Origin: a virus
Taxonomy: Duplodnaviria; Heunggongvirae; Uroviricota; Caudoviricetes
DNA length: 64,000 nt
Strand: one strand, 5' to 3'
Virus record (IMG/VR): IMGVR_UViG_3300013426_000020
Part shown: positions 464-48,056 of the stretch, piece by piece
Numbering within the stretch: the first letter of the stretch is position 1
Layout of the letters: every line of letters begins with the position of its first letter
Notes under the pieces: generated by a model
Databases searched by the model: none
What the model saw: the letters and a program-made list of their open reading frames with translations, nothing else
What the model was told of the DNA's origin: nothing
Translations under genes and position numbers: made by a program

Positions 464-545
464 GGGAGTGCGGCAACGATGGTGAGTTGCACCAGACTGT
501 AAATCTGGTCTTTCGGGTTAGGGGGTTCGAATCCCTCCACTCCCA
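464..545 (+). tRNA. tRNA-Tyr (anticodon GTA), class II with long variable arm
   Basis: Cloverleaf by eye: acceptor gggagtg/cactccc, anticodon loop ctGTAaa, variable arm tctttcgggttagg, T-loop GGTTCGAATCC, discriminator A. Confidence 0.75.
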
Positions 546-640
546 CAAAAAAAAGTTCTTTGAAAATAAGAAACATAATCAGTCAATAACGTAATTACTC
601 TGCATAAGATCCTGGCAGTGAGAGAAGGGACGCTGATTTT

Positions 641-898
641 ATGACAACCATAAACCATTATTACATTGAATGTGATGATGTTTATCCTAGGAAATGGGTA
701 TCATTTATGAAACTCCAGATTGGGAAGGTCAAGTCAATGGAACGTGTCCGTCAGAATGATGTCTTTCGGGATTTCATCCTGCAACCTGAAGACAGGGGAG
801 TCCGTGAGGAGCGGTATGAGACAACACAACAGACGCATAAGAATGACGGAGATGTCTTTTATACCGTCAGTCCGGAAAATGGAAGCGACAGTCTGTAG
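641..898 (+). CDS. hypothetical protein (inside the tRNA cluster; uncertain)
   Basis: 85-aa ORF with no recognisable motifs; it lies between tRNA genes. Confidence 0.25.
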   Translation: MTTINHYYIECDDVYPRKWVSFMKLQIGKVKSMERVRQNDVFRDFILQPEDRGVREERYETTQQTHKNDGDVFYTVSPENGSDSL

Positions 899-1061
899 TT
901 CGTAAATCTGGTTGTCTTTTATATGACATCATTTTGCAGCCATAATAATCGGGACAATTGAAACCGAATCAGTGATGATGTCATCAGCAAGTTTTTCACC
1001 GGGGTTTCCTTGGTTCTTCAGGGTGTGAGTTTTGAAGAATAAAATAAATCTCGGTTTTTAT

Positions 1062-1133
1062 GCCTCTTTAGTATAAAGGTTATTATAACTGACTTGTAAT
1101 CAGTAGATATTGGTTCAATTCCGATAAGAGGCT
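1062..1133 (+). tRNA. tRNA-Thr (anticodon TGT)
   Basis: Acceptor gcctctt/aagaggc, anticodon stem actga/tcagt with loop ctTGTaa, T-loop GGTTCAATTCC. Confidence 0.7.
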
Positions 1134-1264
1134 CAAAAAAATGCAGACCCGTATAGTAAACTTGTAAGTTCTGGGTTTGGAGAAATCCATATAAGACCAT
1201 CTATAACACACTGGATAAAGTCGATTTTGGCATGCTCATAGGTTCAGTTGATGATGGAAACTGC

Positions 1265-1352
1265 ATTTTTTTTTGGAAGGTTGGGAGAGTTGGTTTATTC
1301 CAGAAGTCTTGAAAACTTCCGAACCTGTAAGGGTTCCGCAAGTTCGAATCTT
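1265..1352 (+). tRNA. tRNA-Ser (anticodon TGA), class II
   Basis: Acceptor ggaaggt/accttcc, discriminator G, anticodon loop ctTGAaa, long variable arm, T-loop GTTCGAATC. Confidence 0.75.
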
Positions 1353-1649
1353 GCACCTTCCGCAAAATAATCCCGGTGCAACAGGGATTGACAAGCAGGT
1401 TGCCAATAGGTAGGGGATAACCAATGATGTAATTTCGGTGTTTGATGCCTTTGAATGTCACCAAGTGTCTGTTTGAAGGAACAACATTGATGTAAATCCG
1501 GAGTGAATAATACGGCGGAAAAGTTCAGGTGGGGGTTTGTTGATGATGGTTTGTAGTACCTTGAACATTTGATTTTCCTCACAGAGAAATCCACTTCCCG
1601 GGCATTGTGTGGATGGAAAAATAGAGAACAGTTTCAAAAAACTACAATT

Positions 1650-1731
1650 ACCTGAGTGGGGGAATGGTAGACCCAGAACACTCAAAATGTTCCGCTCAAA
1701 AAGCATATGAGTTCGAATCTCATCTCAGGTA
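1650..1731 (+). tRNA. tRNA-Leu (anticodon CAA), class II
   Basis: Acceptor acctgag/ctcaggt, anticodon stem gaaca/tgttc with loop ctCAAaa, long variable arm, T-loop GTTCGAATC. Confidence 0.7.
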
Positions 1732-1746
1732 CAATTTATTATTGAT

Positions 1747-1929
1747 ATGAAAAAAGTTTGGTACAAAATTACAAATAAATTAGGATGGACAAAATATCAA
1801 TCTTTGGAAAGATATATTGAAGATCAGAAAGAATTTCATTATACACCTGTCAAGAAGATCATAAGAGTAACTGAAGAAGAGTTGTCAGAAGATATCATTG
1901 ATGATGTCAATAAACAAATTGGATGGTAA
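1747..1929 (+). CDS. hypothetical small protein (uncertain)
   Basis: 60-aa ORF sitting between tRNA-Leu and tRNA-Glu. Confidence 0.3.
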   Translation: MKKVWYKITNKLGWTKYQSLERYIEDQKEFHYTPVKKIIRVTEEELSEDIIDDVNKQIGW

Positions 1930-1969
1930 AATGAAAATACAATGATTTTTCAATTGATTTATCATATAT

Positions 1970-2043
1970 GCTCGGTTCATATAATGGTTTAGTATACAAG
2001 ATTTTCATTCTTGTCATGGTCGGTTCGACTCCGCCACCGAGTA
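1970..2043 (+). tRNA. tRNA-Glu (anticodon TTC)
   Basis: Acceptor gctcggt/accgagt (one G-U), anticodon stem caaga/tcttg with loop ttTTCat, T-loop GGTTCGACTCC. The D-arm is weak. Confidence 0.55.
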
Positions 2044-2087
2044 CTAATTTTTATTCTGTCAAATAAAAAAAAAATTATTACAAATTT

Positions 2088-2708
2088 ATGTCAAAATTTA
2101 TGAACACCGAAAAGAGAAACCAGATACTCAAGGAGTTGATGGTTTCTATAAGAAAGAACACACAGAAGTCAAGATGCATTGATGTTTTTGAAGATCTGTT
2201 GAACAACATTGATGACAAAAATGTAGTTGACATAGTCATAACAGATATGACTGTCTTTGTCAGTGAATTTTCAAGACTCTGCAAGGATATTGACAATATG
2301 AAGAACATTGACTTCATTTCAAGAATTCTCACAAAGGAATTCATCAAACCGGAAAAATGTTTCAGGGAATCTAAGGAAATTGCAAAACTTTATCTTGACT
2401 TGAGTGAGATTCTTCTTGGAAAATATACACATTTTCCTTATGTTCCTGAAAAACAGGTTATGTTGTCAAATTCAAACTGTCTCGGCAATCTTCAATACAA
2501 GGAAACATATACTCTTGATGACATTTTGAAGGTATCTAACTATTTCGGAGACTTAACTGACTTGTCAGTAGATGATTTCAAGAAAAAGTATGAACTTGCA
2601 AGGAAAGTTATACTTCTTTATAATTATCTTCCTGCTGTGGTGAAGGCATTCATCCAGACAAAACGAAGAAGTTTCAATCTGGATAGGAACTCGACAAAGT
2701 TCAAATAA
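2088..2708 (+). CDS. hypothetical protein
   Basis: 206-aa ORF; the first + strand gene after the tRNA array. Confidence 0.55.
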   Translation: MSKFMNTEKRNQILKELMVSIRKNTQKSRCIDVFEDLLNNIDDKNVVDIVITDMTVFVSEFSRLCKDIDNMKNIDFISRILTKEFIKPEKCFRESKEIAKLYLDLSEILLGKYTHFPYVPEKQVMLSNSNCLGNLQYKETYTLDDILKVSNYFGDLTDLSVDDFKKKYELARKVILLYNYLPAVVKAFIQTKRRSFNLDRNSTKFK

Positions 2709-2821
2709 ATTACATAAATAATTTGACATCACTCGGAGAGCGTATGTTCTGGTTGACCGCATTACCGTAAATGCGGTATTTTTATGTTTATTGAAGAAAT
2801 ATAATTTGTTATTTTTGAATT

Positions 2822-3871
2822 ATGAAAAAGTTTATTTTTATTTTATTGAGTCTGTTTATGGTACAGTCATGTTTTATAAATGACATAAGAACAGACTATG
2901 AAGGAAATCAGGTCATATCTTTTGAGCCTATTTCAAGAAAACAACACACAAGATCAACACCTTTATCAAAGTATGAATCTACAACAGGAGACTTTGCGGT
3001 CTTTTCATGGTATCAAAGGGGGACTGGAAGTTTTGATCCTGTCAATAATGATGTTGTACTTTATATGGACAATGTTGTATGTTCATATGATGAGATAAAT
3101 GGAAAAGGAACATGGATGCCTGTTACCACTTATTTTTGGCCAAAGAATGGAAAACTCACATTTTCTGCATATTATCCTGTTGGTGATGTGTTTGCTCCTA
3201 ATGTAAATGTGGATACAAAGACAGGATTGAAATTCAATGATTATAACATTGCAAATGCTGTTGATCAGAAGGATTTGATGTTCAGCTCAAGAACATATGA
3301 TAAATCTGCATCTATACATCCAGATGATTTTATTACAACTTATGATGGAGTTGATATATTGTTCAATCATGCTTTGTCAGCAATTTCTTTCACAGTGAAA
3401 TCAAGGGATGATTATAATGGTGTATTACTTTTGAAAAGAATTGAACTTATTGATGTGAAACACAAGGGTTCATTTGATGAGAATCTGACAGATGGATATG
3501 CAGTTAACAAGTCAGTCTGGTCTGTTGATGATGATAATGTTGATTATAAGATATATGAATCAACAGAAACATATGGAACAATAATTGATATGTCTGGTGT
3601 TGTATTCACAGATGCAAATACAGGTATAGTTCTTCCACAGGTTTTTGATGACAATGCAAAGATAAGAATTACATATTACATCAAATATGGTACAGACAAA
3701 TATCTTGAACAAGTCAATGATGTGAAGTTGAAGGATTTGAAGAAGGATGGACTTGTTTCACTTGATGCATGGGAAATGGGAAAATGGTACAAATACAATA
3801 TCACATTTGGTCTGGATCAGATTTATTTTGCACCTGCTATTGAAGAATGGATTGATGTAATTGTACGATAG
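2822..3871 (+). CDS. putative lipoprotein / secreted protein
   Basis: N-terminus MKKFIFILLSLFMVQSC is a signal peptide with a lipobox-like Cys; 349 aa. A TTTGTTATTTTT motif lies just upstream. Confidence 0.6.
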   Translation: MKKFIFILLSLFMVQSCFINDIRTDYEGNQVISFEPISRKQHTRSTPLSKYESTTGDFAVFSWYQRGTGSFDPVNNDVVLYMDNVVCSYDEINGKGTWMPVTTYFWPKNGKLTFSAYYPVGDVFAPNVNVDTKTGLKFNDYNIANAVDQKDLMFSSRTYDKSASIHPDDFITTYDGVDILFNHALSAISFTVKSRDDYNGVLLLKRIELIDVKHKGSFDENLTDGYAVNKSVWSVDDDNVDYKIYESTETYGTIIDMSGVVFTDANTGIVLPQVFDDNAKIRITYYIKYGTDKYLEQVNDVKLKDLKKDGLVSLDAWEMGKWYKYNITFGLDQIYFAPAIEEWIDVIVR

Positions 3872-3900
3872 TCATAAATACATAAAACAATTTATAAGTT

Positions 3901-4113
3901 ATGAACGAATTATCAAAGAATAATCTTATATGGTTCGGTAAGGTGCTTGCATTTGCACTGCCTGTATTCTTTGCAATAATCACATTTGCAGGAATTCTCA
4001 ATGGAATAGTTTCCGGTGGAATTGATTCCTTTTATGGATATGTGGCAGCTTTGAACATAGGTGTTGAAGGTTATTTGTTTTATAATCTTTATAGGAAGTT
4101 ATTCAAGAAATAA
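3901..4113 (+). CDS. small membrane protein
   Basis: 70 aa with two hydrophobic segments. Confidence 0.45.
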   Translation: MNELSKNNLIWFGKVLAFALPVFFAIITFAGILNGIVSGGIDSFYGYVAALNIGVEGYLFYNLYRKLFKK

Positions 4114-4121
4114 CTTAGTTT

Positions 4122-4211
4122 GGAAGATTACCCAAGTGGTGAAGGGGACGGTTTGCTAAACCGTTAGATCGGTCAATTACCGGTGCGGGGGTTCAAATCC
4201 CTCATCTTCCG
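4122..4211 (+). tRNA. tRNA-Ser (anticodon GCT), class II
   Basis: Acceptor ggaagat/atcttcc, discriminator G, anticodon stem acggt/accgt with loop ttGCTaa, long variable arm, T-loop GGTTCAAATCC. Confidence 0.75.
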
Positions 4212-4317
4212 CAAATTATACAATGTTTTTGGTTCAGGGAATGTATATGTCCCTTGAGTGTTCTTATGGACGCAAATGAATCGGAGACAGTTAAATACAA
4301 ATAAAATTTAATGAAGT

Positions 4318-5118
4318 ATGAGTTACAAAATTACAGAACAATTGGCGAAAATCGCCATCGCAAAAAGTCTTGTAAAGGAATACAGGACAAATGAATCAGG
4401 AAGAACAGTTTATTTGAACAATGGAACAGAATTCCAGATTTATCTCAAAAATCCTTATAGGAAACACATGGGTGTCAAGATTTATGTGAATGAACAGGAA
4501 ATAGGTGGTACACTTATCCTAAAACCTGGTCAGTCCTGTTGGCTTGAAAGGTTTATGAACAATGACAAGAAGTTTCTTTTTTCTACATATGAAGTTGAAA
4601 ACACACAGGAGATGAAAAACGCCATAAGTAATAATGGTAATATAAAGATAGAGTTCTTTATGGAAAAGGAAGTTGTTTATCATTATGAATGGAACAATAT
4701 CATAGACAACCCTATAAAACCATGGTCTCCTTATAACGATACAATAGTATGGTCATCCAGCAATCCTATAAACTGCAAGTTGACCAGTTTGAATATGGGT
4801 ACTTCAAATAGTTTGATACAAAGGGCTAATATTGTAGAAACATCTTGTTGCACAAAATATAATTCAAGTATACCATATCATAATGGTGTGATTGAGACTG
4901 GAAGAGTGGAGAGTGGATCAAAGTCAAATCAAAAGTTTGAAAACTGTGATATAGATCTTGAATATAATCCCTTCAAGGTGGAGGTCATCAAGATACTTCC
5001 TAATTCAAGAAAACAGGTTTCAGTCAATGAGACAAGACGGAAATATTGCGGGCAGTGTGGGAAGAAAGTAAGTCCAAAGGACAAATATTGTTCAAATTGT
5101 GGAACAAAACTGATATAA
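4318..5118 (+). CDS. hypothetical protein with C-terminal zinc ribbon
   Basis: C-terminus CGQCGKKVSPKDKYCSNCG is a CxxC-x9-CxxC pattern. Confidence 0.55.
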   Translation: MSYKITEQLAKIAIAKSLVKEYRTNESGRTVYLNNGTEFQIYLKNPYRKHMGVKIYVNEQEIGGTLILKPGQSCWLERFMNNDKKFLFSTYEVENTQEMKNAISNNGNIKIEFFMEKEVVYHYEWNNIIDNPIKPWSPYNDTIVWSSSNPINCKLTSLNMGTSNSLIQRANIVETSCCTKYNSSIPYHNGVIETGRVESGSKSNQKFENCDIDLEYNPFKVEVIKILPNSRKQVSVNETRRKYCGQCGKKVSPKDKYCSNCGTKLI

Positions 5119-5132
5119 AACAATACTGATAT

Positions 5133-5513
5133 ATGGTCATCAATGATGAAACAAAAATAGAATTCGGTGAGGAAAAACAGATAAATGACTATCAGTTTCT
5201 TCTTCCAGTTATAGTTGACGGTGAAGAAATGTCCGTTGATGATGTGAATTTCATCATTGAACCCCATAATGTAAGAGGGAAGTCATTATATCAGCCACAT
5301 ATCAAGATTGTTCCTAAATATCAACATCTGGGACTGGGTTATAAAATATTCAAGACATTTCTGTTCGAGTTCGGCAACATCTACTGCTGGAACTGGTGTA
5401 TTGTGAATAAACCTGTTATTTTCAAGATACTGGATAAACTGGGAAAGGAATCGGATGTGACCAGATTTAAAAAGACAAAGGACTACTATTATATATCTGT
5501 TGAAAATGACTGA
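5133..5513 (+). CDS. hypothetical protein
   Basis: 126-aa ORF followed by a terminator. Confidence 0.5.
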   Translation: MVINDETKIEFGEEKQINDYQFLLPVIVDGEEMSVDDVNFIIEPHNVRGKSLYQPHIKIVPKYQHLGLGYKIFKTFLFEFGNIYCWNWCIVNKPVIFKILDKLGKESDVTRFKKTKDYYYISVEND

Positions 5514-5536
5514 AGAAATTCAGTCATTTTTTTTTT
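5508..5536 (+). terminator. Rho-independent terminator
   Basis: Hairpin gactgaa...ttcagtc followed by T10. Confidence 0.6.
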
Positions 5537-5543
5537 GAATTTA

Positions 5544-5575
5544 TTTGGAAGTTTGAAATTTTGTTCATATCTTTG
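5544..5575 (+). promoter_or_regulatory. Bacteroidota sigma-A type promoter (class A cassette): -33 TTTG / 20 nt / -7 TATCTTTG
   Basis: TTTG at 5544, TATCTTTG at 5568, spacing exactly 20 nt. Confidence 0.55.
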
Positions 5576-5643
5576 CATCAAGAAAATAAAACATCAACTT
5601 TTTACTTCAAGTCCGGAAGGATAAATACAGGACAAAAGAAAAA

Positions 5644-6882
5644 ATGAACAGTAAGGAATTCATCAACAAGTATGGTTCAGAAGAACTGAAGGCGACAAGT
5701 AATTTTGCAACCAAGTCATTGGGAGTGAATTATGATGTCAAGGATGCATTTATTGAATTCGGTGATAATGCATATGACAGTAGAATCAAAAATTCAAGAC
5801 TTGAATTCAACATCAGTATTGATTCAGAAAAACACACTATCATATTTTATGACAATGGTTCCGGCATCAAGGATGATACCAAGCTCTTTCTTCTTGGTGG
5901 AACAAATAAGGAAAGCAATAAAAACAAGATAGGTAAATATGGTATAGGTGTTCCTGGTGCAACTGCTGCCATCGCAACACAGTGCAAGTTTGATAAAAAT
6001 GAAATTGTGGAAGCAATATTTGAATCTGCAAGTGATGGGAAGTCATTTATCAAACATACGGCATTTATGCCTAATGGTGAAATGATTAATGGCAAGACTG
6101 TTTATGGGACATGTGATAAGTCAAAACATTTCACAAGACTTACATTTACGAATGTCTCAATTGGTTCCACATCATCAATCATTGATTCGATGGAAGAAAT
6201 TTTTGAAATACCACTTCACAGAAATATGGACATCATTTTCAATGGAAGAAAACTGGGTATGTCAACCACACCTACATTTATAGGTGATGAAATTCCAAAG
6301 ACAATAATGGTTGGAAGTATTCCAGTTGAAGTGAAATATAGAATTATTGGAGGAAACAAATCTGATGATTCGCGTGCATTGAAGGAAGCAGGCTTGAGAA
6401 TTTATGACAAGAATAGTGGAAGACTTCTTGCAAAAAGTCAGGAATTGTGGAAATGGTTCTGCAACAAACAGGCATTTCAGGATATTTGCGGATGCCGTGC
6501 TGGAATATTCATTGACAGTACAATTGATGCATATAAAAAATTTGGTATCAAATCATCAAAGAATGGAGTAACATACAGATTGTATTGTCAGGATCCAGAC
6601 TTCAAAGATCTTGCAGATGAACTGAAAGTAATTTATGGTGTAGCATTATCAACAAATTGTAGCAACAGGATTTCAAATGTTGATGCTATTATAAAGGGAT
6701 CTAGAAAATTTCAGATTTCACCTTTGAAGATAAATGGTCTTTATCTTGAGGCATCAAAAAATGAATACATTATCAAGAAGAAATATTCACAGGATGAAAT
6801 TGTAGGTATGATAGATACCATCATTGATCTTCAGAATAAGTTGAACAGAAAAACAAAAAAGTCAAAAACAGCAGAAGCATGA
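5644..6882 (+). CDS. GHKL-superfamily (HATPase_c / MORC-like) ATPase
   Basis: Bergerat-fold motifs: N-box EFGDNAYDS, G1 YDNGSGI, G2 GKYGIGVPGA. Confidence 0.7.
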   Translation: MNSKEFINKYGSEELKATSNFATKSLGVNYDVKDAFIEFGDNAYDSRIKNSRLEFNISIDSEKHTIIFYDNGSGIKDDTKLFLLGGTNKESNKNKIGKYGIGVPGATAAIATQCKFDKNEIVEAIFESASDGKSFIKHTAFMPNGEMINGKTVYGTCDKSKHFTRLTFTNVSIGSTSSIIDSMEEIFEIPLHRNMDIIFNGRKLGMSTTPTFIGDEIPKTIMVGSIPVEVKYRIIGGNKSDDSRALKEAGLRIYDKNSGRLLAKSQELWKWFCNKQAFQDICGCRAGIFIDSTIDAYKKFGIKSSKNGVTYRLYCQDPDFKDLADELKVIYGVALSTNCSNRISNVDAIIKGSRKFQISPLKINGLYLEASKNEYIIKKKYSQDEIVGMIDTIIDLQNKLNRKTKKSKTAEA

Positions 6883-7589
6883 TGACATCTTTTTCAATAA
6901 CATCATCAAAAAAGGATGATGACTTGCTGACAACAGTAAGTGAAAACATATGCAAAGACTTGAAAGATAAATATCTTTCAAGTCTTCCAGAGACATGGAA
7001 TATTGAATGTGGAAACAAAAAACTCAATTTTGATGATATAAAAACTGCTCTGGTAGATTCAGGATTATCAGAAAATAAGGCATCAAAATACTATGGTCTT
7101 GCAAGTGGAATTGAGACAGATTCACATATAATATATCTCACCATCAAGAAAGGAGATAGAATCATCAAGAAACCATTGTTTATGGGAGAGATGAAAAAAC
7201 AGGGAACAAATGACAGAAGACTTGCAGAAGGAAAGTTAAAACAGGCCATAGGTAATGCCGCTGGAGACAGGGTTGCAAAGAATTTCCTGATTTCATCTGA
7301 TTATTGTTATACATGTGATAGGGAGTTTTTTCCATATAATGTATATCTTCATGGATGTGATTTCAATGAAGATATGACAAACACAATGAAGGCAAAACTA
7401 ACTCCCCTGTTTGGAACTTTGAATAGGATAAATCCATGGTTTGATAAGGATATGCTCATATATACTGCTGGACATAAAGGTGGGAGTTGTTTCTATCAGA
7501 ACAATGACTTCACATATAAGCAATTATATGATTTGTGTTATGAATGTTGCAGGATAGGTATTGAGCATTATCTTGAAAAATATAGATAA
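6879..7589 (+). CDS. Cys-rich protein, putative PD-(D/E)xK nuclease partner of the GHKL ATPase
   Basis: Its start overlaps the stop of the upstream gene (ATGA). Candidate D...ExK core: IIYLTIKKGD then 11 aa then GEMKK. Cys clusters CYTCD...HGCD and CYECC. The CDS itself is clear; the function is inferred. Confidence 0.5.
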   Translation: MMTSFSITSSKKDDDLLTTVSENICKDLKDKYLSSLPETWNIECGNKKLNFDDIKTALVDSGLSENKASKYYGLASGIETDSHIIYLTIKKGDRIIKKPLFMGEMKKQGTNDRRLAEGKLKQAIGNAAGDRVAKNFLISSDYCYTCDREFFPYNVYLHGCDFNEDMTNTMKAKLTPLFGTLNRINPWFDKDMLIYTAGHKGGSCFYQNNDFTYKQLYDLCYECCRIGIEHYLEKYR

Positions 7590-7631
7590 AAAAAAAAATC
7601 TCTGGATTATAAAATCCAGAGATTTTTTTTT
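7590..7631 (+). terminator. Rho-independent terminator
   Basis: A10, then hairpin atctctggatt/aatccagagat, then T9. Confidence 0.6.
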
Positions 7632-7856
7632 GGGAACGATATACCTGTTGGCAGCAGAAGTTCGTAAATATCCAAGATTGTTGGACTTTAAGAATCTGCT
7701 TTGATTATTCCGAGCTTCGTAAACCATGGACTGGTGTGTGATACACCCTGTTCTACACACCACGAGACTTCAGATGGGGCATTAGCGCATAAAATGGCGC
7801 GTTCCACACAAAAAAAAAAAATCATTGCCGACAGGTATATCATTTCTTTTTTTTTG
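7632..7856 (+). ncRNA. candidate structured ncRNA (about 225 nt), family unknown
   Basis: 17-bp closing helix 7638-7654 with 7825-7841, containing two G-U pairs that would be A/C mismatches on the opposite strand. Internal 8-bp hairpin ggtgtgtg/cacacacc, a small gcgc/gcgc hairpin, an A14 run, and a terminal U-run. No ORF. Confidence 0.4.
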
Positions 7857-7876
7857 TTATTTTTATTATAAACTTT

Positions 7877-9007
7877 ATGATGGAGAACAATTTTTTTCTC
7901 ACCGATCAGATAATAACATATATAGGAAACAAGCGGAAGCTTCTCAATGACATAAATCTGGAAGTTGAACACATACTCAAGGAACTTGGTATTCAAAAAG
8001 GAAAATTGTGTGATTTGTTTTCCGGAAGTGGAATTGTAGCCAGATCAGTGAAGAAATATTCAAACATGCTTTATGTGAATGATTTGGAAAAATACAGTTG
8101 CATAATCAATGACTGTTATCTTACAAATAAAGATGAGTTTGATGAAATAACATATAATACATATCTGGATAAGATTTTGGATTTTCCAGAAGTCGAAGGA
8201 ATAATAACAAAAAACTATGCTCCAGAAGATGATAATGACATAAAATATGGAGAAAGAGTATTTTACACACATGATAATGCTGTTATTATTGATACCATAC
8301 GTACTGCAATAGATGAATATGTTCCAGATGAATATAAGAAGTTCTATCTGGCTCCATTATTATATGAGGCATCAATACATACAAATACAAGTGGAATATT
8401 CAAAGGATTCTACAAGTCAAAGGAGACTGGTATAGGCAAATTTGGTGGTGATGGGGAGAATTCATTGTCCAGAATATGTGGAAAGATTTCATTGAAGAAA
8501 CCCATATTTTCAAATTATGACTGTAATAAGATTATCTTGAATGGGGATGCGAATACTGTGGCAAGAACATTAAAAAATCTTGACATAACATATCTTGATC
8601 CTCCATATAATCAACATCCATACAGTTCAAATTATTTTATGCTGAATACTATAATTGAGAACAAGATTGGTGATAATTTGAGTAAGGTTTCAGGTATTCC
8701 AGAAGACTGGAACAAATCAAGTTATAATAGAAAGAATAGTGCATTGAAATCTTTTGAAGATCTTATATCCAATCTTGATTCAAAATATATGATAATCTCA
8801 TATAACAATGAAGGAATCATATCATATGATGATATGTGTAATATGCTTTCAAAATATGGAACAGTGGAGATAAACAATATAGAATATAATGCTTTCAAGG
8901 GAAGTCGCAATTTGAATGGAAGAGACAAACACACAATAGAATATTTGTTTGTCTTAAAAAAAGACGGACCAAGAAGAATTATCATAAAAAATGAAGGACT
9001 TTTTTAA
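7877..9007 (+). CDS. N6-adenine DNA methyltransferase, Dam/D12 class
   Basis: Motif X YIGNKRKLL, motif I FSGSGIV, motif IV DITYLDPPYN, in the alpha-class order. Confidence 0.85.
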   Translation: MMENNFFLTDQIITYIGNKRKLLNDINLEVEHILKELGIQKGKLCDLFSGSGIVARSVKKYSNMLYVNDLEKYSCIINDCYLTNKDEFDEITYNTYLDKILDFPEVEGIITKNYAPEDDNDIKYGERVFYTHDNAVIIDTIRTAIDEYVPDEYKKFYLAPLLYEASIHTNTSGIFKGFYKSKETGIGKFGGDGENSLSRICGKISLKKPIFSNYDCNKIILNGDANTVARTLKNLDITYLDPPYNQHPYSSNYFMLNTIIENKIGDNLSKVSGIPEDWNKSSYNRKNSALKSFEDLISNLDSKYMIISYNNEGIISYDDMCNMLSKYGTVEINNIEYNAFKGSRNLNGRDKHTIEYLFVLKKDGPRRIIIKNEGLF

Positions 9008-9017
9008 TTTATAATTT

Positions 9018-10148
9018 ATGCAGATAATAGATAATGTGCAGTTGGATTTCAGCGATGTTTTGATAAGACCGAGAAGGTCAACCTTGGCATCAAGAAAGGA
9101 TGTTGATATTACAAGGGAATATAAGTTCAAATGGTGTCCCAAGGTCATCAGGGGGACAGGAATTATGCAGGCGAATATGGGAACCATAGGAAATTTTGAT
9201 GTAAGTGAGAGAATGCTTGAAAATGGATTGTTTGCCTGTCTTCACAAGCACCATGATATAGACAGTCTTATAGACTTTTATAAGAAACTTTTGACTTATG
9301 ATGATGACAGATGGATGAGATGTCTGTTGAGCATAGGTTTGAAGGACAATGGAGTGGAGAAACTTGAAAGAATATACAGGGAACTCAGTATTCAGGTGGG
9401 TATCAAGCTGGATGTTCCAAACGGATATATTCCGCAGGTAAAGGAGATGGTGGTCAAGTTGAGAGACCAGTTTCCGGAGATGCTGATTATGGTGGGAAAT
9501 GTAGTCACAGGAGACATTTCAGAAGATTTGATACTTTCCGGAGCAGACATAGTCGCAGAGGGGATCGGATCGGGTGGTCAATGTATTACTCGCAAGCAGA
9601 CCGGTGTAGGAAGACCACAGTTTTCTACAATAGTTGAAACAGCTGATGCAGTTCATCAGGTAGGTGGACTCATCTGTTCAGACGGAGGGATAACATGTGC
9701 AGGTGATGTGGGGAAGGCATTTGGCGCAGGAGCGGATTTCATTATGATAGGGGGACTGTTTGCAGGAACAGATGAAGCTGACGGGGATATCATAGAGAAA
9801 TACTACAATACTGGAGAACTGAACAGGACAGACAATGGAGACAGTTATATATATTCTCCTGTTATAGAGACAAAAAAATATAAGCTCTTTTATGGTATGA
9901 GTTCCACGCTTGCGCAGGAAAAATTTGGAAACGGAAAACCTAAATACAGGGCAAGTGAGGGGAGGGTGACACAGGTTCCTTATGTAGGATCGGTAAATGA
10001 TGTGGTTGAGGAACTTCTTGGTGGACTCAGATCAACAATGACATATATCGGTGCAAGAAGACTCAAGGACATACCGAAACAGTGCATCTTTTACAGGGTG
10101 AACAACCAGTTGAACAGAATGTTTGAAAACAATACAATAGGAAAATAA
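9018..10148 (+). CDS. guaC: GMP reductase (GuaC, IMPDH/GMPR family)
   Basis: Collinear similarity to E. coli GuaC: MQIIDNVQLDFSDVLIRPRRS, GIGSGGQCITRKQTGVGRPQFS, SDGGITCAGDVGKAFGAGADF, GMSS...YRASEG. Confidence 0.85.
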   Translation: MQIIDNVQLDFSDVLIRPRRSTLASRKDVDITREYKFKWCPKVIRGTGIMQANMGTIGNFDVSERMLENGLFACLHKHHDIDSLIDFYKKLLTYDDDRWMRCLLSIGLKDNGVEKLERIYRELSIQVGIKLDVPNGYIPQVKEMVVKLRDQFPEMLIMVGNVVTGDISEDLILSGADIVAEGIGSGGQCITRKQTGVGRPQFSTIVETADAVHQVGGLICSDGGITCAGDVGKAFGAGADFIMIGGLFAGTDEADGDIIEKYYNTGELNRTDNGDSYIYSPVIETKKYKLFYGMSSTLAQEKFGNGKPKYRASEGRVTQVPYVGSVNDVVEELLGGLRSTMTYIGARRLKDIPKQCIFYRVNNQLNRMFENNTIGK

Positions 10149-10152
10149 AAAA

Positions 10153-10178
10153 ATGGAGATGATAAATCATCTCCATTT
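10153..10178. terminator. bidirectional terminator between convergent genes
   Basis: Hairpin atggagatgat/atcatctccat flanked by A and T runs. Confidence 0.55.
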
Positions 10179-10180
10179 TG

Positions 10181-11080
10181 TTAAATTTCAATTTCATATG
10201 TAGAATCTGAAAAATCAATCACATGTGTCTTGTCGAATTCAGGTTTGTATGTACAATCCATCAATGGTTTGTCATCGGTGTCATAAATGACAATCCCTGT
10301 CTCGATAAGTTGTGGATATGCATCCTCATATGTCATAGACTCTGGTTCTGAAGGTTGATAGTAGTCTCCATTGAATCCGGCATAATATTTTGACTTGTGA
10401 TATTCAAATTCAAATGTAGGATAAAGTTCTATTTTATAATCATTGAATTTGAATTCAATAGAAGATTCATATGTGTTATTTATATCTTCTACATTTCTTT
10501 CATCTATAAAAATTTCAATACATCTGTCAAGTTCATCACAACATTCATCAATAAAGTCATCAAGAATACCCCGTTCATCAAAAAAGTTCTTGATATCATT
10601 AAAGTCTTCAATGTCCTTTTTGTGATTCTTTACGAATTCTTTTCTATGATTGAACTTCTTTTCGAATTTTGTAGGTTCAACTGTTTTTCTTTTTTTCCTG
10701 TCATTTCTTATATCATATAGATGATTGGACACATCTTTTTTATTGACTCTGCACACAAGATACTTTCCTGATTTCAAACCTATTATATAATCTTCAGTCA
10801 TATTGATTATTTCCCATGGTTTGGTGTCATCAATTTCAAAATCATCTCCACGCCGTTTATATCTAGGTTGTGCATCTATGGTTTCTATACCTGAATTGTT
10901 CAACATATCTTCCGCATCGTCCTTGCTGTCAGCCATACCTATGATATCATTTTCAGAAATTTGATTAAGTATGGATTTATCAATATCTGCATCAAATTCA
11001 CCGTCTTTGAATAACTTTGATATTGTTGGACTTTTGAAACTTTCATTTAAAGATATGAATTCATCAAATTTGAGTATCAT
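10181..11080 (-). CDS. acidic hypothetical protein (one of few minus-strand genes)
   Basis: 299-aa ORF, D/E-rich, convergent with guaC. Confidence 0.55.
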   Translation of the reverse strand: MILKFDEFISLNESFKSPTISKLFKDGEFDADIDKSILNQISENDIIGMADSKDDAEDMLNNSGIETIDAQPRYKRRGDDFEIDDTKPWEIINMTEDYIIGLKSGKYLVCRVNKKDVSNHLYDIRNDRKKRKTVEPTKFEKKFNHRKEFVKNHKKDIEDFNDIKNFFDERGILDDFIDECCDELDRCIEIFIDERNVEDINNTYESSIEFKFNDYKIELYPTFEFEYHKSKYYAGFNGDYYQPSEPESMTYEDAYPQLIETGIVIYDTDDKPLMDCTYKPEFDKTHVIDFSDSTYEIEI

Positions 11081-12610: not shown

Positions 12611-13189
12611 ATGTCAAGACCGAACAAATGTATAAAGGATGAGACAGGGAAGGAATACTGGATTTCAAGATCTGTTGTGGTGATTCCTGTGGTGTTCAAA
12701 TATGATATTCAAAATGATGACATATATGCCCTTGTGGAGAGAAGGGGTCCTGCGGTGTCACATCCCGGAGAATGGTGCTGTCCGTGTGGGTATATAGACT
12801 GGGATGAGAGTCTTACGGAAGCATGTGTAAGGGAAGTACGGGAAGAAACAGGTCTTGTGCTTGACGAAGAAAGAATAAATCTGTTTGAAGTGAACAGCGA
12901 CAAGTACACAAAAAACCAGACTGTGGATTTGTGGTACGAGTGCTGGATACCCGAAGAGTCCGATTTTCATATGGACAAGATCGAGACGAAGACCGAGATT
13001 CTTGATGTGAGATGGCTGAAGGTGGCGCATATGGGAAATAATGATTCCGGAAAGAATATTCTGACCATATATAAGAAATCGATATATGACGGATACGGCA
13101 TATGGGCGTTCAAGTCTCATCATACACATGTCATAGATATGTTGAAGTCAAGGTTTTCAATGTGTGATATAAAGGAAGTTGATGAGTAA
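12611..13189 (+). CDS. Nudix hydrolase
   Basis: Nudix box GYIDWDESLTEACVREVREETGL. Confidence 0.7.
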   Translation: MSRPNKCIKDETGKEYWISRSVVVIPVVFKYDIQNDDIYALVERRGPAVSHPGEWCCPCGYIDWDESLTEACVREVREETGLVLDEERINLFEVNSDKYTKNQTVDLWYECWIPEESDFHMDKIETKTEILDVRWLKVAHMGNNDSGKNILTIYKKSIYDGYGIWAFKSHHTHVIDMLKSRFSMCDIKEVDE

Positions 13190-14669
13190 GAAAGGTTTAT
13201 ATAAGAATGTGCTTGACGGGGGTTATGAAATATGGCTTCCGTTTGTCTTGAATTCACAGCAGAAAGATGTCCTGAAACAGATTGACGACTTCATCAACTC
13301 GAAAACGGAATTCGCGATGACGGTTTCCGGATGGGCTGGAACAGGAAAGACCACCCTAATGGAGATTGTGAACAAAAGATACTGGATGGGACATACGATA
13401 CATTTCTGTGCGACCACCCACAAGGCGGCAGGAGTGTTGAGGGAAAAGGTGGGAAAGAGAGTGTCCACCGTCAATTCATTGTTCGGGATAATGATAGAGA
13501 CAGATATGGACAGGGAGAATTATGATGTCTCTTTCAAGTCCAGAAAGAAATCTGAAGACAAGGTGAAGAACAATTCCATAATCATCATAGACGAGGCGTC
13601 AATGCTGTCCATACAGAACTATATGGACGTGATATTGAAGGCAAGGGAAAGAAAGTGCAAAATCATATTCATAGGTGACTCCGCGCAGCTGTCCCCCGTA
13701 AATGAGGATGACATATCGGTCGTGTTCAGAAACACAGACCACAGGATAGTGGAACTCACGAAGGTGATGAGAACCGATGACAATGCCATATTGAATGAGT
13801 CCACATCAATAAGGACCGGAGAGGGGTTCACTTATGAGAGTAATGTAAATGAATCAGGAGAAGGTGTGAAGTTCATAGACAATGATGACTTTGCAGGTAT
13901 TATTGATGTGATAGACTCGCATATTGACGGATTGAAGACTGACCCGAATTATTTCAGAATACTCACATACACCAATGTCAATGTGGAGAAGTTGAACATG
14001 ATGGTCAGAAAGAAGTTAGGATATGACGGAATGCCACCGCAGACAGGTGAACCCTTGATGTCATATGCAAACTGGGGATATGATGGAATGGGAAAGACAG
14101 GTGTGAACTATAAAATCATAAACTCCGAGGCTTATATGTGTTGTGGCATAACAAACGAATATGACGAGAACATAAGGGAGATGATAACTTACAGACTTGA
14201 CAGATGTCCGGATGACTTCAATCTTCATATCATAGAGATTGAAATCGAGAATCCGTTGAAGGAAAGAATAACTGTTCCTTATATAGACGTGAAATATAAT
14301 GATCACAACAAGGAACTGGTGAAACTTCTCGCATATGAGAAAGTATATCAATGGGGAAAATACAGGGAATGTGAGAACAAGATGGACAAGTTCAAATGTC
14401 TTGAAAAGATAAACTCTATCGACGAGTTTCTTCTGGTGAATGACAATGTGTATGACGGATACGGAAATCTGATACAGGCGAAGGTGATTGACTATGGATA
14501 TGCACACACTATACACAAGAGTCAGGGGAGCACTTTCAGTAATGTCCTGATAAATGACAATGACATAGACAAATGTCTTGACAAAAGGGTGAAGAAACAG
14601 TTGAGATATGTGGCTTTGACCAGAGCGAGCAAGTCGGCAACAATTATAACATCACACAGAATTCAATAA
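13179..14669 (+). CDS. SF1 DNA helicase, Dda/RecD-like
   Basis: Walker A GWAGTGKTT, Walker B IIIIDEASML, C-terminal HTIHKSQGSTFSNV and ALTRASK. Confidence 0.7.
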   Translation: MMSKKGLYKNVLDGGYEIWLPFVLNSQQKDVLKQIDDFINSKTEFAMTVSGWAGTGKTTLMEIVNKRYWMGHTIHFCATTHKAAGVLREKVGKRVSTVNSLFGIMIETDMDRENYDVSFKSRKKSEDKVKNNSIIIIDEASMLSIQNYMDVILKARERKCKIIFIGDSAQLSPVNEDDISVVFRNTDHRIVELTKVMRTDDNAILNESTSIRTGEGFTYESNVNESGEGVKFIDNDDFAGIIDVIDSHIDGLKTDPNYFRILTYTNVNVEKLNMMVRKKLGYDGMPPQTGEPLMSYANWGYDGMGKTGVNYKIINSEAYMCCGITNEYDENIREMITYRLDRCPDDFNLHIIEIEIENPLKERITVPYIDVKYNDHNKELVKLLAYEKVYQWGKYRECENKMDKFKCLEKINSIDEFLLVNDNVYDGYGNLIQAKVIDYGYAHTIHKSQGSTFSNVLINDNDIDKCLDKRVKKQLRYVALTRASKSATIITSHRIQ

Positions 14670-18609: not shown

Positions 18610-19557
18610 ATGGATGCTGTTATAACATTTGTAGATTCATCCGATGAAGTATGGATGAGAAATATGCTGAAAGGATACACACAGGAAGGTAATACATCAA
18701 ATCATGTACTCGCAACATTTACAAACAAGGGAAACTCAATGAGATACAATTTCTTCTATGATTATGGTACACTAAAATATGTATTAAGGGGTATAGATAA
18801 GTTTATACCATATGTGAAGAATGTTTTTCTTGTAGTGAGTAACATAGAACAGATACCGGAATATGTTGATTTGTCAAAAGTCATTCCTGTATTACATAAG
18901 GATTTCATTCCTGAAAAGTTTCTTCCCACATATAACTCAACAACAATAGAGATGTTCCTGAACAGGATACACGGTCTTGATGATGAATTTGTATATTTCA
19001 ATGATGACATGATTCCTGTGAATCCCATAGAATATAATGAACTCTTCAGAGATGGAATCCCATGCATAAATTTTGAGGAGAACAATAGAGATCCCCATTA
19101 TATGACATACAGACACTGCAATATATCATTCGGTGAAGCGAGGAACAGTGTTGAGATGACAGGAAAAGATATTGATTATTCCGGTCCGGTGATGATACCT
19201 GTACATAGTCCAGTGTCGATGTTGAAATCTGTAATGGATGAATATGCTAATCAGGAAAGATTTTCAAGTATGCTCGACTTCTACATAACATCCACACGTC
19301 AAGGAAGAAATCTCACACAGTATTACTGGAGTGACATTCTTTTCTTCCTAAAGAAATATGTTCAAAATGATAACCTGACATTGAAATATGTCTGGACATA
19401 TGACCTTGACAACTTTAATGCAGGTGATATAGGTGACTGTAAATATCTGTGCATAAATGATTCGGCAAGAAAGAACAAACCATTGAGTGAGACAGAGACC
19501 GAGATACAGAATATGATGAACAGAATATTACCTGAAAAGAGCAGATATGAGAAATGA
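18610..19557 (+). CDS. Stealth-family (CR1/CR2) putative hexose-/polyol-phosphate transferase
   Basis: CR1-like DAVITFVDSSDEVW and CR2-like YFNDDMIPVNP. Confidence 0.45.
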   Translation: MDAVITFVDSSDEVWMRNMLKGYTQEGNTSNHVLATFTNKGNSMRYNFFYDYGTLKYVLRGIDKFIPYVKNVFLVVSNIEQIPEYVDLSKVIPVLHKDFIPEKFLPTYNSTTIEMFLNRIHGLDDEFVYFNDDMIPVNPIEYNELFRDGIPCINFEENNRDPHYMTYRHCNISFGEARNSVEMTGKDIDYSGPVMIPVHSPVSMLKSVMDEYANQERFSSMLDFYITSTRQGRNLTQYYWSDILFFLKKYVQNDNLTLKYVWTYDLDNFNAGDIGDCKYLCINDSARKNKPLSETETEIQNMMNRILPEKSRYEK

Positions 19558-22491: not shown

Positions 22492-22523
22492 TTTGGAAGT
22501 TTGAAATAATTGTCGTATCTTTG
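22492..22523 (+). promoter_or_regulatory. class A promoter with conserved leader
   Basis: TTTGgaagTTTGaaataattgtcgTATCTTTGtatcaacaaataaaaacaaagacatttATG. Confidence 0.55.
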
Positions 22524-38114: not shown

Positions 38115-38146
38115 TTTGGATAATTCAATTTTTATCCTTATCTTTG
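38115..38146 (+). promoter_or_regulatory. class A promoter, 'ggataattcaatttttatcc' subfamily (copy 1 of 3 tandem cassettes)
   Basis: TTTG at 38115, 20 nt, TATCTTTG at 38139. Confidence 0.5.
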
Positions 38147-48024: not shown

Positions 48025-48056
48025 TTTGGAAGTTTGAAATAATTGTTGTATCTTTG
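48025..48056 (+). promoter_or_regulatory. class A promoter
   Basis: TTTG at 48025, 20 nt, TATCTTTG at 48049. Confidence 0.5.

What the first reader, a model, noticed from the sequence alone, without database searches (positions are those of the whole stretch)
5644..9007. GHKL/MORC-like ATPase + Cys-rich PD-(D/E)xK-like protein + structured RNA + Dam-family MTase cluster
The first gene has all three Bergerat ATPase motifs. It is translationally coupled (ATGA) to a 236-aa Cys-rich protein with a plausible D...ExK core. This is followed, after a roughly 225-nt structured non-coding element, by an alpha-class N6-adenine MTase. Prokaryotic MORC-like GHKL ATPases are known from comparative genomics to associate with restriction-type nucleases and R-M systems. 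The arrangement could therefore be a phage-carried restriction/defence-like or superinfection-exclusion module, with the MTase protecting self. The intervening ncRNA is an unusual extra component.
Basis: partly seen in the sequence, partly recalled or inferred. Interest (0 to 1): 0.6.

Follow-up and report, generated by a model that had tools for sequence, protein, structure and literature searches.

The report
Phage restriction-modification module with MORC-like ATPase
A gut-type phage carries a three-gene DNA-cutting and DNA-marking system: an EcoRI-like restriction enzyme always paired with a MORC-like ATPase, plus a protecting methylase. This family is uncharacterised and seen only in uncultured phage contigs, and the 'structured RNA' between the genes is an unrelated insertion.

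Summary

The order ATPase-nuclease-methylase holds in nine lineages, down to 33%/37%/65% identity. The ATPase and nuclease always abut or overlap; the methylase always has its own upstream gap. The ATPase family has about 70 clusters. Every member examined with enough flank lies next to this nuclease.

Neither protein matches 50,697 GenBank phages. No close nuclease relative was found in 185,579 species genomes. Distant bacterial EcoRI-like genes form ordinary two-gene systems.

The "ncRNA" is a terminator (7590-7631) plus a 215-nt insertion with inverted ends (7632-7846). That insertion is absent from a relative with 97% nuclease identity and from all other lineages.

Best reading: a phage-borne, probably ATP-gated, type II-like restriction-modification module. 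It is a new variant of the predicted MORC/paraMORC-linked systems.

The parts
5544..5575 (+). Bacteroidota-type promoter-like site (TTTG-N20-TATCTTTG) upstream of the ATPase gene. It follows a terminator-like hairpin at 5502-5531.
   Evidence: The pattern TTTG-N17-21-TAnnTTTG occurs 22 times in the window against 2.2 expected, and this is one copy. It belongs to repeat family D1. Promoter function is inferred from the published Bacteroides consensus (own knowledge).
5644..6882 (+). MORC-like GHKL ATPase with a GHKL domain, an S5-like transducer domain, a small beta domain and a Lys-rich C-terminal helix.
6879..7589 (+). EcoRI-family type II restriction endonuclease. Its start overlaps the ATPase stop (ATGA).
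   Evidence: The 72 homologue clusters are nearly all annotated PF02963. The family profile hits EcoRI in the PDB at E=1e-5 over the catalytic and recognition core. The AF2 model has pLDDT 90.2. The top Foldseek PDB hits are EcoRI 1qri and 1qrh, E about 1e-7, TM 0.64-0.68. D81, E104, K106, GNAxxDRxxKN and FPYxxxLHGCDF are conserved.
7590..7631 (.). Bidirectional intrinsic terminator (A9, 10-bp stem, T9) that closes the ATPase-nuclease transcription unit.
   Evidence: Terminator scan: 19 pairs, followed by a T-run. A hairpin at the same position is kept in L001, L002 and L069.
7632..7846 (.). 215-nt inserted element with imperfect terminal inverted repeats (GATATACCTGTTGGCA at 7638-7653 and its complement at 7826-7841). 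It is flanked by T9G decamers at 7623-7632 and 7847-7856. It is not part of the module.
   Evidence: It is present in L070, L071 and L072 (L072 has 32 extra internal nt). It is absent from L069, L001-6, L007 and L009. There is no Rfam hit, no second copy in the window and no match in IMG/VR or JGI metagenomes.
7852..7872 (+). Promoter-like motif TTTGTTATTTTTATTATAAAC just upstream of the MTase start. It is a different motif class from the ATPase promoter.
   Evidence: It belongs to repeat families D10 and D13, whose other copies lie just upstream of other genes. It is conserved in L069 and L001 directly after the terminator. Function is inferred.
7877..9007 (+). Alpha-class (D12) N6-adenine DNA methyltransferase, the presumed cognate modification enzyme.
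   Evidence: PF02086 E=1.5e-18. PADLOC MTase_II PDLC03257 E=5e-115 over the full length. It is 65-69% identical across lineages in which the ATPase and nuclease fall to 33-37%.

Best explanation
This is a phage-borne three-gene restriction-modification module.

Shown: an EcoRI-family endonuclease is co-transcribed and translationally coupled with a MORC-like GHKL ATPase. An alpha-class D12 N6-adenine methyltransferase follows as a separate transcription unit. The trio is inherited as a block across deeply diverged phage-like contigs.

Inferred: the methylase marks the phage genome at the nuclease's site. That site probably has an AATT core, because the EcoRI segment GNA..(D/E)R that reads AATT is conserved. 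The nuclease cuts unmethylated DNA, either the host chromosome or co-infecting phages. The ATPase is an obligate partner. It would act as an ATP-driven dimeric clamp that binds the nuclease and DNA and licenses or restrains cleavage, much as MutL activates MutH. That would make this an ATP-gated relative of the classic ATP-independent EcoRI.

The 215-nt structured segment between nuclease and methylase is a recent insertion with inverted ends and has no role in the system.
For: Nuclease identity: (EcoRI profile and fold; catalytic D/E/K and recognition motif conserved).

ATPase identity and competence.

MTase.

Obligate linkage:
- The same gene order occurs in 9 lineages with different flanking genes, down to 33% (ATPase), 37% (nuclease) and 65% (MTase) identity. 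The ATPase-nuclease junction ranges from -17 to +21 nt, and all motifs are kept.
- An exhaustive HMMER search of 1.84 billion representatives found only 19 with E<1e-30. Beyond those, only the generic N-terminal ATPase domain matches.
- Distant bacterial EcoRI-like homologues (26-37% identity) sit next to small N6_Mtase genes without this ATPase.

Natural decay variants fit restriction-modification logic. L090 carries an in-frame ATPase::nuclease deletion fusion with an intact MTase. In L085/L086 the ATPase N-terminal domain is deleted and the MTase is split by an IS607-like element, yet the nuclease ORF is intact. That is what one expects if the nuclease is harmless without the ATPase.

Separate transcription units: promoter-like site and terminators.

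Phage setting: tRNA cluster, PIF1 helicase, GMP reductase and many small ORFs; no close relative in 185,579 species genomes.

Precedent: GHKL/MORC-type ATPases were predicted as restriction-modification components (PMC2292703). A GHKL domain is required for a nuclease defence protein, VcSduA (PMC12137116).
Against: Nothing biochemical was tested. ATP dependence, ATPase-nuclease contact, the recognition site and cognate specificity of MTase and nuclease are all inferred.

The window nuclease alone scores below the Pfam EcoRI threshold (13.7 against 22 bits). Membership rests on the family profile and the fold.

No NAATTN palindrome is avoided in the window, and GAATTC is slightly over-represented at 63 against 48 expected. 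This is uninformative for a self-methylating phage and gives no support for the proposed site.

The L085/L086 argument rests on one lineage, and loss of the promoter could equally silence the nuclease there.

A close MTase relative occurs as an orphan, so the MTase can function alone.

That the contigs are phages is inferred from gene content, not shown.
Confidence: 0.7

Rival explanations
1. This is an ordinary ATP-independent type II R-M system (EcoRI-like nuclease plus D12 MTase). The GHKL ATPase is a neighbour with a separate job, for example a chaperone-like, rIIA-like or topoisomerase-like phage function.
For: EcoRI and its known relatives need no ATPase (own knowledge; review PMC4081073). 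Distant bacterial homologues are two-gene systems. The viral structure library shows GHKL+transducer proteins with other roles, such as rIIA and topoisomerase II.
Against: The ATPase overlaps or abuts the nuclease in every lineage down to 33% identity, amid otherwise unrelated flanks. ATPase and nuclease identities fall in step: 50/65, 52/62, 49/53, 45/52, 43/45 and 33/37. No full-length ATPase relative was seen in any other setting.
Confidence: 0.12
2. This is a MutL-MutH-Dam-like strand-discrimination or nicking system for phage replication or repair. The D12 MTase marks parental strands, the EcoRI-like enzyme nicks the unmethylated strand of hemimethylated sites, and the GHKL ATPase activates it.
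Against: There is no MutS-like gene in the module or among the large ORFs of the window. The nuclease is EcoRI family, not MutH/Sau3AI. No MutL C-terminal domain was found, and MORC and SMCHD1 score higher than MutL. The decay variants and the orphan MTase look like R-M turnover.
Confidence: 0.07
3. The MTase is primarily an anti-restriction (host-evasion) methylase. The ATPase-nuclease pair is an independent toxin-like, abortive or host-takeover nuclease that the MTase does not counteract.
For: The MTase has its own promoter-like motif and sits after a terminator. Its family is much larger than the other two, with at least 8000 hits at E<=1e-20. It also occurs alone.
Against: The MTase follows the nuclease in all nine intact lineages. 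EcoRI-family enzymes are sequence-specific and methylation-sensitive (own knowledge). The MTase stays near 65-69% identity in all six diverged lineages (L007 to L100), which fits a fixed shared specificity.
Confidence: 0.06
4. The structured 215-nt element is a functional RNA that regulates the switch between nuclease and MTase expression.
For: It folds strongly (z=-6.1) and lies between the two transcription units.
Against: It is absent from a relative with 97% nuclease identity and from every other lineage. It lies downstream of the terminator. It folds about as well on the opposite strand. It has inverted ends and flanking T9G repeats like an insertion, and no Rfam match.
Confidence: 0.03

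Closest known systems
EcoRI / RsrI / MunI family of type II restriction endonucleases (Pfam PF02963; PDB 1qri, 1ckq)
   Same: The fold matches (TM 0.64-0.68). The catalytic residues correspond: D81/E104/K106 to EcoRI D91/E111/K113. The 'AAGNAIERSHKN' recognition segment corresponds to 'AIGNAAGDRVAKN', and FPYVLFLEGSNF to FPYNVYLHGCDF.
   Different: Sequence identity is only about 16-17%. The protein is shorter (236 against 277 aa). It has conserved Cys/His residues (H158, C204, C223, C224) that EcoRI lacks. It is paired with a D12 alpha-class MTase rather than an EcoRI-type methylase. It is always preceded by a GHKL ATPase. Its recognition site is unknown.
MORC / paraMORC GHKL ATPases predicted in restriction-modification operons (Iyer, Abhiman & Aravind 2008, PMC2292703)
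   Same: A GHKL+S5 ATPase is encoded in an operon with a restriction-fold nuclease and a DNA methylase. The proposed role is ATP-driven reorganisation or looping that links recognition to cleavage.
   Different: There is no SFII helicase partner, which is present in about 70% of MORC neighbourhoods. No MORC-specific sequence signature or Morc S5 Pfam hit was found. The partner is a small EcoRI-family type II enzyme. The family is isolated in sequence and was seen only on phage-like contigs. None of these systems, as far as the searched literature shows, has been characterised biochemically (PMC8011034).
MutL-MutH-Dam of methyl-directed mismatch repair
   Different: There is no MutS and no MutL C-terminal domain. 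The nuclease family is different, and the setting is a phage accessory region.
GHKL-nuclease defence proteins such as VcSduA (Shedu with an N-terminal GHKL ATPase; PMC12137116)
   Same: A GHKL ATPase is coupled to a PD-(D/E)xK nuclease. ATPase and nuclease mutants both abolish defence.
   Different: VcSduA is a single fused polypeptide with a DUF4263 nuclease and no methylase. It is bacterial, not phage-borne.
NTP-dependent restriction systems with a separate motor or regulator subunit (CglI/NgoAVII, McrBC). Own knowledge, not checked here.
   Same: A sequence-specific nuclease subunit needs a separately encoded NTPase subunit for cleavage.
   Different: Those NTPases are SF2-helicase-like or AAA+, not GHKL. 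Their nucleases are not EcoRI family.
Virus-encoded type II R-M systems (chlorovirus R-M, prophage-borne R-M). Own knowledge, not checked here.
   Same: A virus carries its own nuclease and protecting methylase. These are thought to degrade host DNA or exclude competitors.
   Different: No ATPase partner is known for those systems.

Membership tests
EcoRI-family type II restriction endonuclease (PF02963) | Significant sequence-profile match to the EcoRI family | tested here: met
   The window protein alone is sub-threshold (E=0.034, 13.7 against 22 bits). The family profile hits EcoRI PDB chains at E=1e-5. Nearly all 72 homologue clusters carry a precomputed PF02963 hit. A distant homologue, L077, scores E=3.9e-12.
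EcoRI-family type II restriction endonuclease (PF02963) | PD...(D/E)xK catalytic residues equivalent to EcoRI D91, E111 and K113 | tested here: met
   D81 is invariant, E104 nearly invariant and K106/K107 conserved. They align to EcoRI D91/E111/K113 and are kept in 9 lineages.
EcoRI-family type II restriction endonuclease (PF02963) | EcoRI fold | tested here: met
   The AF2 model has pLDDT 90.2. The only significant Foldseek PDB hits are EcoRI 1qri and 1qrh (E 1e-7 and 2e-7, TM 0.64-0.68).
EcoRI-family type II restriction endonuclease (PF02963) | Site-specific, methylation-sensitive double-strand cleavage (GAATTC or a related AATT-core site) | not testable with these tools
   Only the conserved GNA..DR..KN segment suggests AATT-core reading. 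Site counts in the window are uninformative.
Classical type II (IIP) R-M system | Adjacent nuclease and methyltransferase genes | tested here: met
   The MTase lies 56-287 nt downstream of the nuclease in all 9 intact lineages.
Classical type II (IIP) R-M system | Nuclease acts alone (Mg2+ only, no NTP, no accessory subunit) | not testable with these tools
   The strictly conserved, translationally coupled GHKL ATPase argues against this. No biochemistry was possible.
MORC sensu stricto | GHKL ATP-binding motifs I-III | tested here: met
   ExxxNAxD, DxGxG and GxxGxG are invariant. They align to MORC3 motifs.
MORC sensu stricto | GHKL plus S5-fold transducer module resembling MORC structures | tested here: met
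MORC sensu stricto | MORC-specific sequence signature or Morc-type S5 profile | tested here: not met
   Only HATPase_c_3 (27.8 bits) and sub-threshold HATPase_c were found, with no MORC S5 family hit at E<=0.1. phmmer against MORC3 gives E=0.62. The protein is therefore filed as MORC-like or paraMORC-like, not as a MORC.
MORC/paraMORC-linked R-M systems (Iyer 2008) | Conserved operonic association of the GHKL ATPase with a restriction-fold nuclease and a DNA methylase | tested here: met
MORC/paraMORC-linked R-M systems (Iyer 2008) | Associated SFII helicase (about 70% of MORC neighbourhoods) | tested here: not met
   No helicase lies next to the trio in any lineage. The PIF1 helicase at 13179-14669 in the window is not conserved with the module.
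D12-class (alpha) N6-adenine DNA methyltransferase | PF02086 match above threshold, with the AdoMet motif (DLFSGSG) N-terminal to the catalytic DPPY | tested here: met
   PF02086 E=1.5e-18, 67.9 against 22 bits. The translation shows DLFSGSG before YLDPPYNQ.
Dam (GATC) orthologue | TIGR00571 score above its cut-off | tested here: not met
   26.3 bits against a cut-off of 114.85.
MutL-MutH-Dam mismatch repair | MutS partner, MutL C-terminal dimerisation domain and MutH/Sau3AI-family nuclease | tested here: not met
   No such domains occur in the module or in the large ORFs of the window. The nuclease is EcoRI family.
Structured ncRNA as a component of the system | Conservation with the module in relatives | tested here: not met
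   It is absent from L069, L001-6, L007, L009 and the other lineages. No Rfam match.

The most novel reading that the evidence does not exclude
This clade of EcoRI-like nucleases has become strictly dependent on a MORC-like GHKL ATPase. The ATPase would be an ATP-gated clamp that licenses cleavage of unmethylated DNA. Large virulent phages would use the pair to destroy host or rival-phage DNA while their own genome is methylated. If so, this would be the smallest natural two-protein system in which the long-unanswered question of what a prokaryotic MORC-type ATPase does to a nuclease can be tested directly.
Probability: 0.4. Interest if true: 0.75.

Novelty: new variant of a known kind. Interest (0 to 1): 0.55.

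Why it matters
EcoRI is the textbook ATP-independent restriction enzyme, so a sister clade always coupled to a MORC-like ATPase would be a distinct mechanistic class. Comparative genomics predicted in 2008 that prokaryotic MORC/paraMORC ATPases work in restriction-modification. A 2021 paper still calls the bacterial MORCs poorly understood, and searches of the held library found no biochemical study of such a system.

This module is compact: a 412-aa ATPase, a 236-aa nuclease and a 376-aa methylase. Both enzymes give confident structural models, which makes the module a tractable test case.

It is also an example of phages, not bacteria, carrying a complete restriction system. That bears on host-DNA degradation and phage-phage exclusion in gut communities.

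Tried and rejected
1. Rfam scan of 5000-10500 at E<=1. It gave only weak hits on the terminator hairpin and none on the 215-nt element.
2. Search for further copies of the element. The terminal-repeat pattern in IMG/VR gave 57 single hits, taken as chance matches because none has two ends within element distance. An internal 24-mer gave nothing in IMG/VR or JGI metagenomes. There is no second copy in the window. The origin of the element remains unknown.
3. DNA and protein searches of 50,697 GenBank phages. There was no DNA match and no tblastn match for the ATPase or the nuclease. The MTase hits are only 24-34% identical (FokI-, HpyI- and LlaI-type annotations), so they say nothing about specificity.
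4. Palindrome statistics, to guess the site. NAATTN words are not avoided, so this is uninformative.
5. Stop-codon reassignment as an explanation for the scarcity of long ORFs after 14.7 kb. Not supported.
6. PDB sequence searches with single proteins. There were no significant hits for the nuclease, the MTase or the ATPase. Profiles and folds were needed.
7. PADLOC. No model matches the ATPase, and the nuclease gets only a weak REase_II hit.
8. BFVD fold search of the ATPase. It returned only generic GHKL+transducer proteins such as topoisomerase II, rIIA and Hsp90.
9. The MunI structure paper (PMC1171646) is not held. Statements about MunI and EcoRI base contacts therefore rest on my own knowledge.


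Full report
**Observation**

The three ORFs exist exactly as described: 5644-6882 (412 aa), 6879-7589 (236 aa) and 7877-9007 (376 aa). The first two overlap by ATGA. A GMP reductase gene (9018-10148) follows.

The window is AT-rich (about 31-42% GC in 2-kb windows) and nearly all coding is on the + strand. It carries six tRNA genes at 464-4212. The Bacteroidota-type promoter consensus TTTG-N17-21-TAnnTTTG occurs 22 times against 2.2 expected.

**The nuclease**

Alone, the 236-aa protein gives only sub-threshold hits: Pfam EcoRI E=0.034 and a PADLOC type II REase model E=0.005.

A search of 5.8 billion proteins found 72 homologue clusters (44-97% identity). Nearly all carry a precomputed PF02963 EcoRI hit.

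A profile of 29 members hits EcoRI chains in the PDB at E=1e-5. The alignment covers the catalytic and recognition core:
- D81 corresponds to EcoRI D91.
- E104-x-K106 corresponds to E111-x-K113.
- 'AIGNAAGDRVAKN' corresponds to 'AAGNAIERSHKN'.
- 'FPYNVYLHGCDF' corresponds to 'FPYVLFLEGSNF'.

The AlphaFold model is confident (pLDDT 90.2). Its only significant PDB neighbours are EcoRI 1qri and 1qrh (E about 1e-7, TM 0.64-0.68).

So the 'Cys-rich PD-(D/E)xK-like protein' is an EcoRI-family restriction endonuclease. From my own knowledge, the GNA..ER segment of EcoRI reads the inner AATT, and that segment is shared with MunI (CAATTG). Its conservation here suggests an AATT-core site, but this is inference. 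Word counts in the window show no avoidance of any NAATTN word.

**The ATPase**

Pfam HATPase_c_3 is above threshold. In 39 homologues the ATP-site residues are invariant: E38/D41/N42/D45, D70/G72/G74 and G97/G100/G102/G105. So is K306-N307 in the second domain.

No MORC-specific profile is matched. I therefore call it MORC-like or paraMORC-like, not a MORC. PADLOC has no model for it. The viral structure library returns only generic GHKL+transducer proteins.

**The methylase**

PF02086 (D12 class) scores E=1.5e-18. A PADLOC type II MTase model matches over the full length at E=5e-115. The AdoMet motif DLFSGSG precedes DPPY, which is the alpha-class order. It is not a Dam orthologue: TIGR00571 scores 26 against a cut-off of 115 bits.

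**Linkage**

Gene neighbourhoods were fetched for nine lineages. All have ATPase-nuclease-MTase in this order, and the surroundings differ. Neighbours include DnaB and a 5'-3' exonuclease, NrdD, ClpB, an MGS-like gene with RlaP, and another D12 MTase.

| Locus | ATPase % id | Nuclease % id | MTase % id |
|---|---|---|---|
| L069 | 99 | 97 | 99 |
| L001 | 92 | 89 | 87 |
| L007 | 50 | 65 | 66 |
| L009 | 52 | 62 | 69 |
| L096 | 49 | 53 | 68 |
| L087 | 45 | 52 | 66 |
| L088 | 43 | 45 | 67 |
| L100 | 33 | 37 | 65 |

Identities are to the window proteins.

- The ATPase-nuclease junction ranges from a 17-nt overlap to a 21-nt gap. The nuclease-MTase spacer is 56-287 nt.
- All catalytic motifs are retained in every lineage. 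The L100 nuclease, which has no Pfam hit, still matches the family profile with hhalign probability 100.
- ATPase and nuclease diverge in step, while the MTase plateaus near 65-69%.
- An exhaustive HMMER search of 1.84 billion representatives finds only 19 with E<1e-30. Beyond these, only the generic N-terminal domain matches. The most distant full-length member found there still sits in the trio.

**Where it lives**

Neither the ATPase nor the nuclease has a tblastn match in 50,697 GenBank phage records. A motif scan of one genome per 185,579 bacterial and archaeal species found no close nuclease relative.

That scan found only 26-37% identical homologues in alphaproteobacterial and Mycoplasmatota MAGs. 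Four of these (L080-L083) lie next to small N6_Mtase genes as ordinary two-gene systems, and none of the ten carries this ATPase.

The carrying contigs (46-371 kb) are dense in small unknown ORFs and phage-type replication and nucleotide genes. The window's PIF1 helicase is nearest to a crAss-like phage, at 33% identity. I infer that the module circulates among large uncultured phages, here one of a Bacteroidota host. This is inference from gene content and promoters.

**Decay variants**

L090 carries an in-frame fusion of ATPase residues 1 to about 165 with nuclease residues about 147 to 236, and the MTase is intact.

In L085/L086 only the C-terminal part of the ATPase remains (profile positions 235-403). 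The MTase there is split by an IS607-like element (serine recombinase plus TnpB), while the nuclease ORF and its catalytic residues are intact. This fits a nuclease that is harmless without its ATPase. It is one lineage only, and loss of the promoter would explain it too.

A 66%-identical MTase occurs as an orphan in abundant contigs of about 100 kb. The MTase family is far larger than the other two.

**Transcription**

A terminator-like hairpin at 5502-5531 and a consensus promoter-like site at 5544-5575 precede the ATPase. A strong bidirectional terminator at 7590-7631 follows the nuclease. The MTase is preceded by a different repeated motif, TTTGTTATTTTTAT at 7852-7872, which recurs just upstream of other genes. 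ATPase+nuclease and MTase are therefore separate units. Their timing is unknown.

**The 'structured RNA'**

The 287-nt spacer consists of the terminator plus a 215-nt segment (7632-7846). That segment has about 20-nt imperfect inverted ends and is flanked by identical T9G decamers. It folds well (z=-6.1), and nearly as well on the other strand (z=-5.0).

It is present in contigs with the identical nuclease (L070, L071, and L072 with 32 extra internal nt). It is absent from L069 (97% nuclease identity) and from all other lineages. In those, the terminator is followed directly by the MTase promoter motif.

It has no Rfam match, no second copy in the window, and no match in IMG/VR or JGI metagenomes. 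It is best read as a small insertion, possibly MITE-like, and not as a component of the system.

**Mechanism**

- Shown: an EcoRI-fold nuclease with intact active site, a catalytically competent-looking MORC-like ATPase encoded in strict tandem with it, and a D12 MTase.
- Inferred: the MTase methylates an adenine in the nuclease's site on phage DNA. The nuclease attacks unmethylated host or rival DNA.
- Inferred: the ATPase is an obligate partner that, on ATP-driven dimerisation, clamps DNA and licenses or restrains the nuclease. This follows the MutL-MutH precedent and the model proposed for MORC/paraMORC R-M systems (PMC2292703). It also resembles the GHKL-nuclease defence protein VcSduA, where both activities are required (PMC12137116).

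I put about 0.85 on 'cognate phage R-M module with a functionally linked ATPase' and about 0.4 on ATP-gated cleavage specifically.

**Comparison and novelty**

The general association of MORC-type GHKL ATPases with R-M operons was predicted in 2008. As of 2021 the bacterial proteins were still described as poorly understood (PMC8011034).

I did not find this trio described in the held library. It combines a sequence-isolated GHKL family, an EcoRI-family nuclease and a D12 MTase, has no helicase, and appears phage-restricted. It is a new variant of a known (predicted) kind, not a new category.

Noticed in passing
window 7632-7846 (also L070, L071; L072 with 32 extra nt): A 215-nt element with about 20-nt inverted ends, flanked by T9G repeats, is inserted between the terminator and the MTase promoter motif in one sublineage only. 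It is richer in G+C than its surroundings (by eye, not computed). It has no Rfam match and no copies elsewhere in the collections searched, so its nature (MITE-like or small RNA gene) is unresolved.
   Followed up: partly
window 464-4212: A cluster of six tRNA genes (Tyr, Thr, Ser, Leu, Glu, Ser) lies just upstream of the module region, interleaved with a fimbrillin-like (Mfa_like_1) gene at 2822-3871.
   Followed up: no
window, 22 sites, e.g. 5544-5575, 22492-22523, 38115-38146, 48025-48056: A highly repeated promoter-like block matches the Bacteroidota consensus TTTG-N17-21-TAnnTTTG, with extended conservation (TTTGGAAGTTTGAAAT...TATCTTTGTATCAACAAATAAAAACAAAG). There are 22 copies against 2.2 expected. 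Twenty of them are on the + strand, spaced about 0.4-11 kb apart.
   Followed up: partly
L002-L005 (about 7924-10568 in L002): In the 89%-identity relatives the GMP reductase (IMPDH-family) gene is split into 289-aa and 228-aa parts by a 341-aa ORF with a faint NUMOD3 hit. This looks like an intron or homing-endonuclease insertion. It is absent from the window.
   Followed up: no
L069 6565-8042: The closest relative without the 215-nt element carries two extra genes after the M42 peptidase gene: a GmrSD_N+HNH protein (type IV restriction-like) and an EcoRI_methylase-family (PF13651) gene. This is a variable defence or counter-defence spot.
   Followed up: no
L085 / L086: An IS607-like element (MerR-HTH serine recombinase plus TnpB) is inserted in the module's MTase, together with deletion of the ATPase N-terminal domain, while the nuclease ORF stays intact.
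   Followed up: partly
L090 162-905: An in-frame deletion fuses ATPase residues 1 to about 165 to nuclease residues about 147 to 236 (cluster P0067, 5 member sequences), leaving an intact MTase. This is a natural restriction-minus variant. The contig has low coverage, so an assembly artefact is not excluded.
   Followed up: partly
L081 5816-8353: In a Rhodobacteraceae MAG, an 846-aa protein with HATPase_c_3 and a C-terminal HATPase_c lies directly downstream of a distant EcoRI-like two-gene R-M system. It resembles the paraMORC-derived HEF_HK proteins described near R-M systems (PMC8011034).
   Followed up: no
window, whole: The short palindromes TTAA (69 against 210 expected), CATG (215 against 408), GATC (158 against 264) and CTAG (8 against 31), and CTGCAG (1 against 15.5), are strongly under-represented. 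This suggests pressure from host restriction systems. GAATTC is slightly over-represented (63 against 48).
   Followed up: no
window 14700-64000: There are very few ORFs of 250 aa or more (17 in 64 kb). Reading TAG or TGA as sense does not give a coherent improvement. The region seems to encode many small proteins plus accessory genes: Stealth_CR2 at 18610, PARG-like at 25251, RlaP at 26671, SPFH at 31605, LicD at 55616 and DUF2828/DUF7788 at 59371.
   Followed up: partly
L091-L095: An abundant orphan D12 MTase (listed in 148 blocks of the collection), 66% identical to the module's MTase, sits in phage-like contigs of about 100-119 kb without the ATPase or nuclease. TnpB/IS elements lie nearby.
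   Followed up: no
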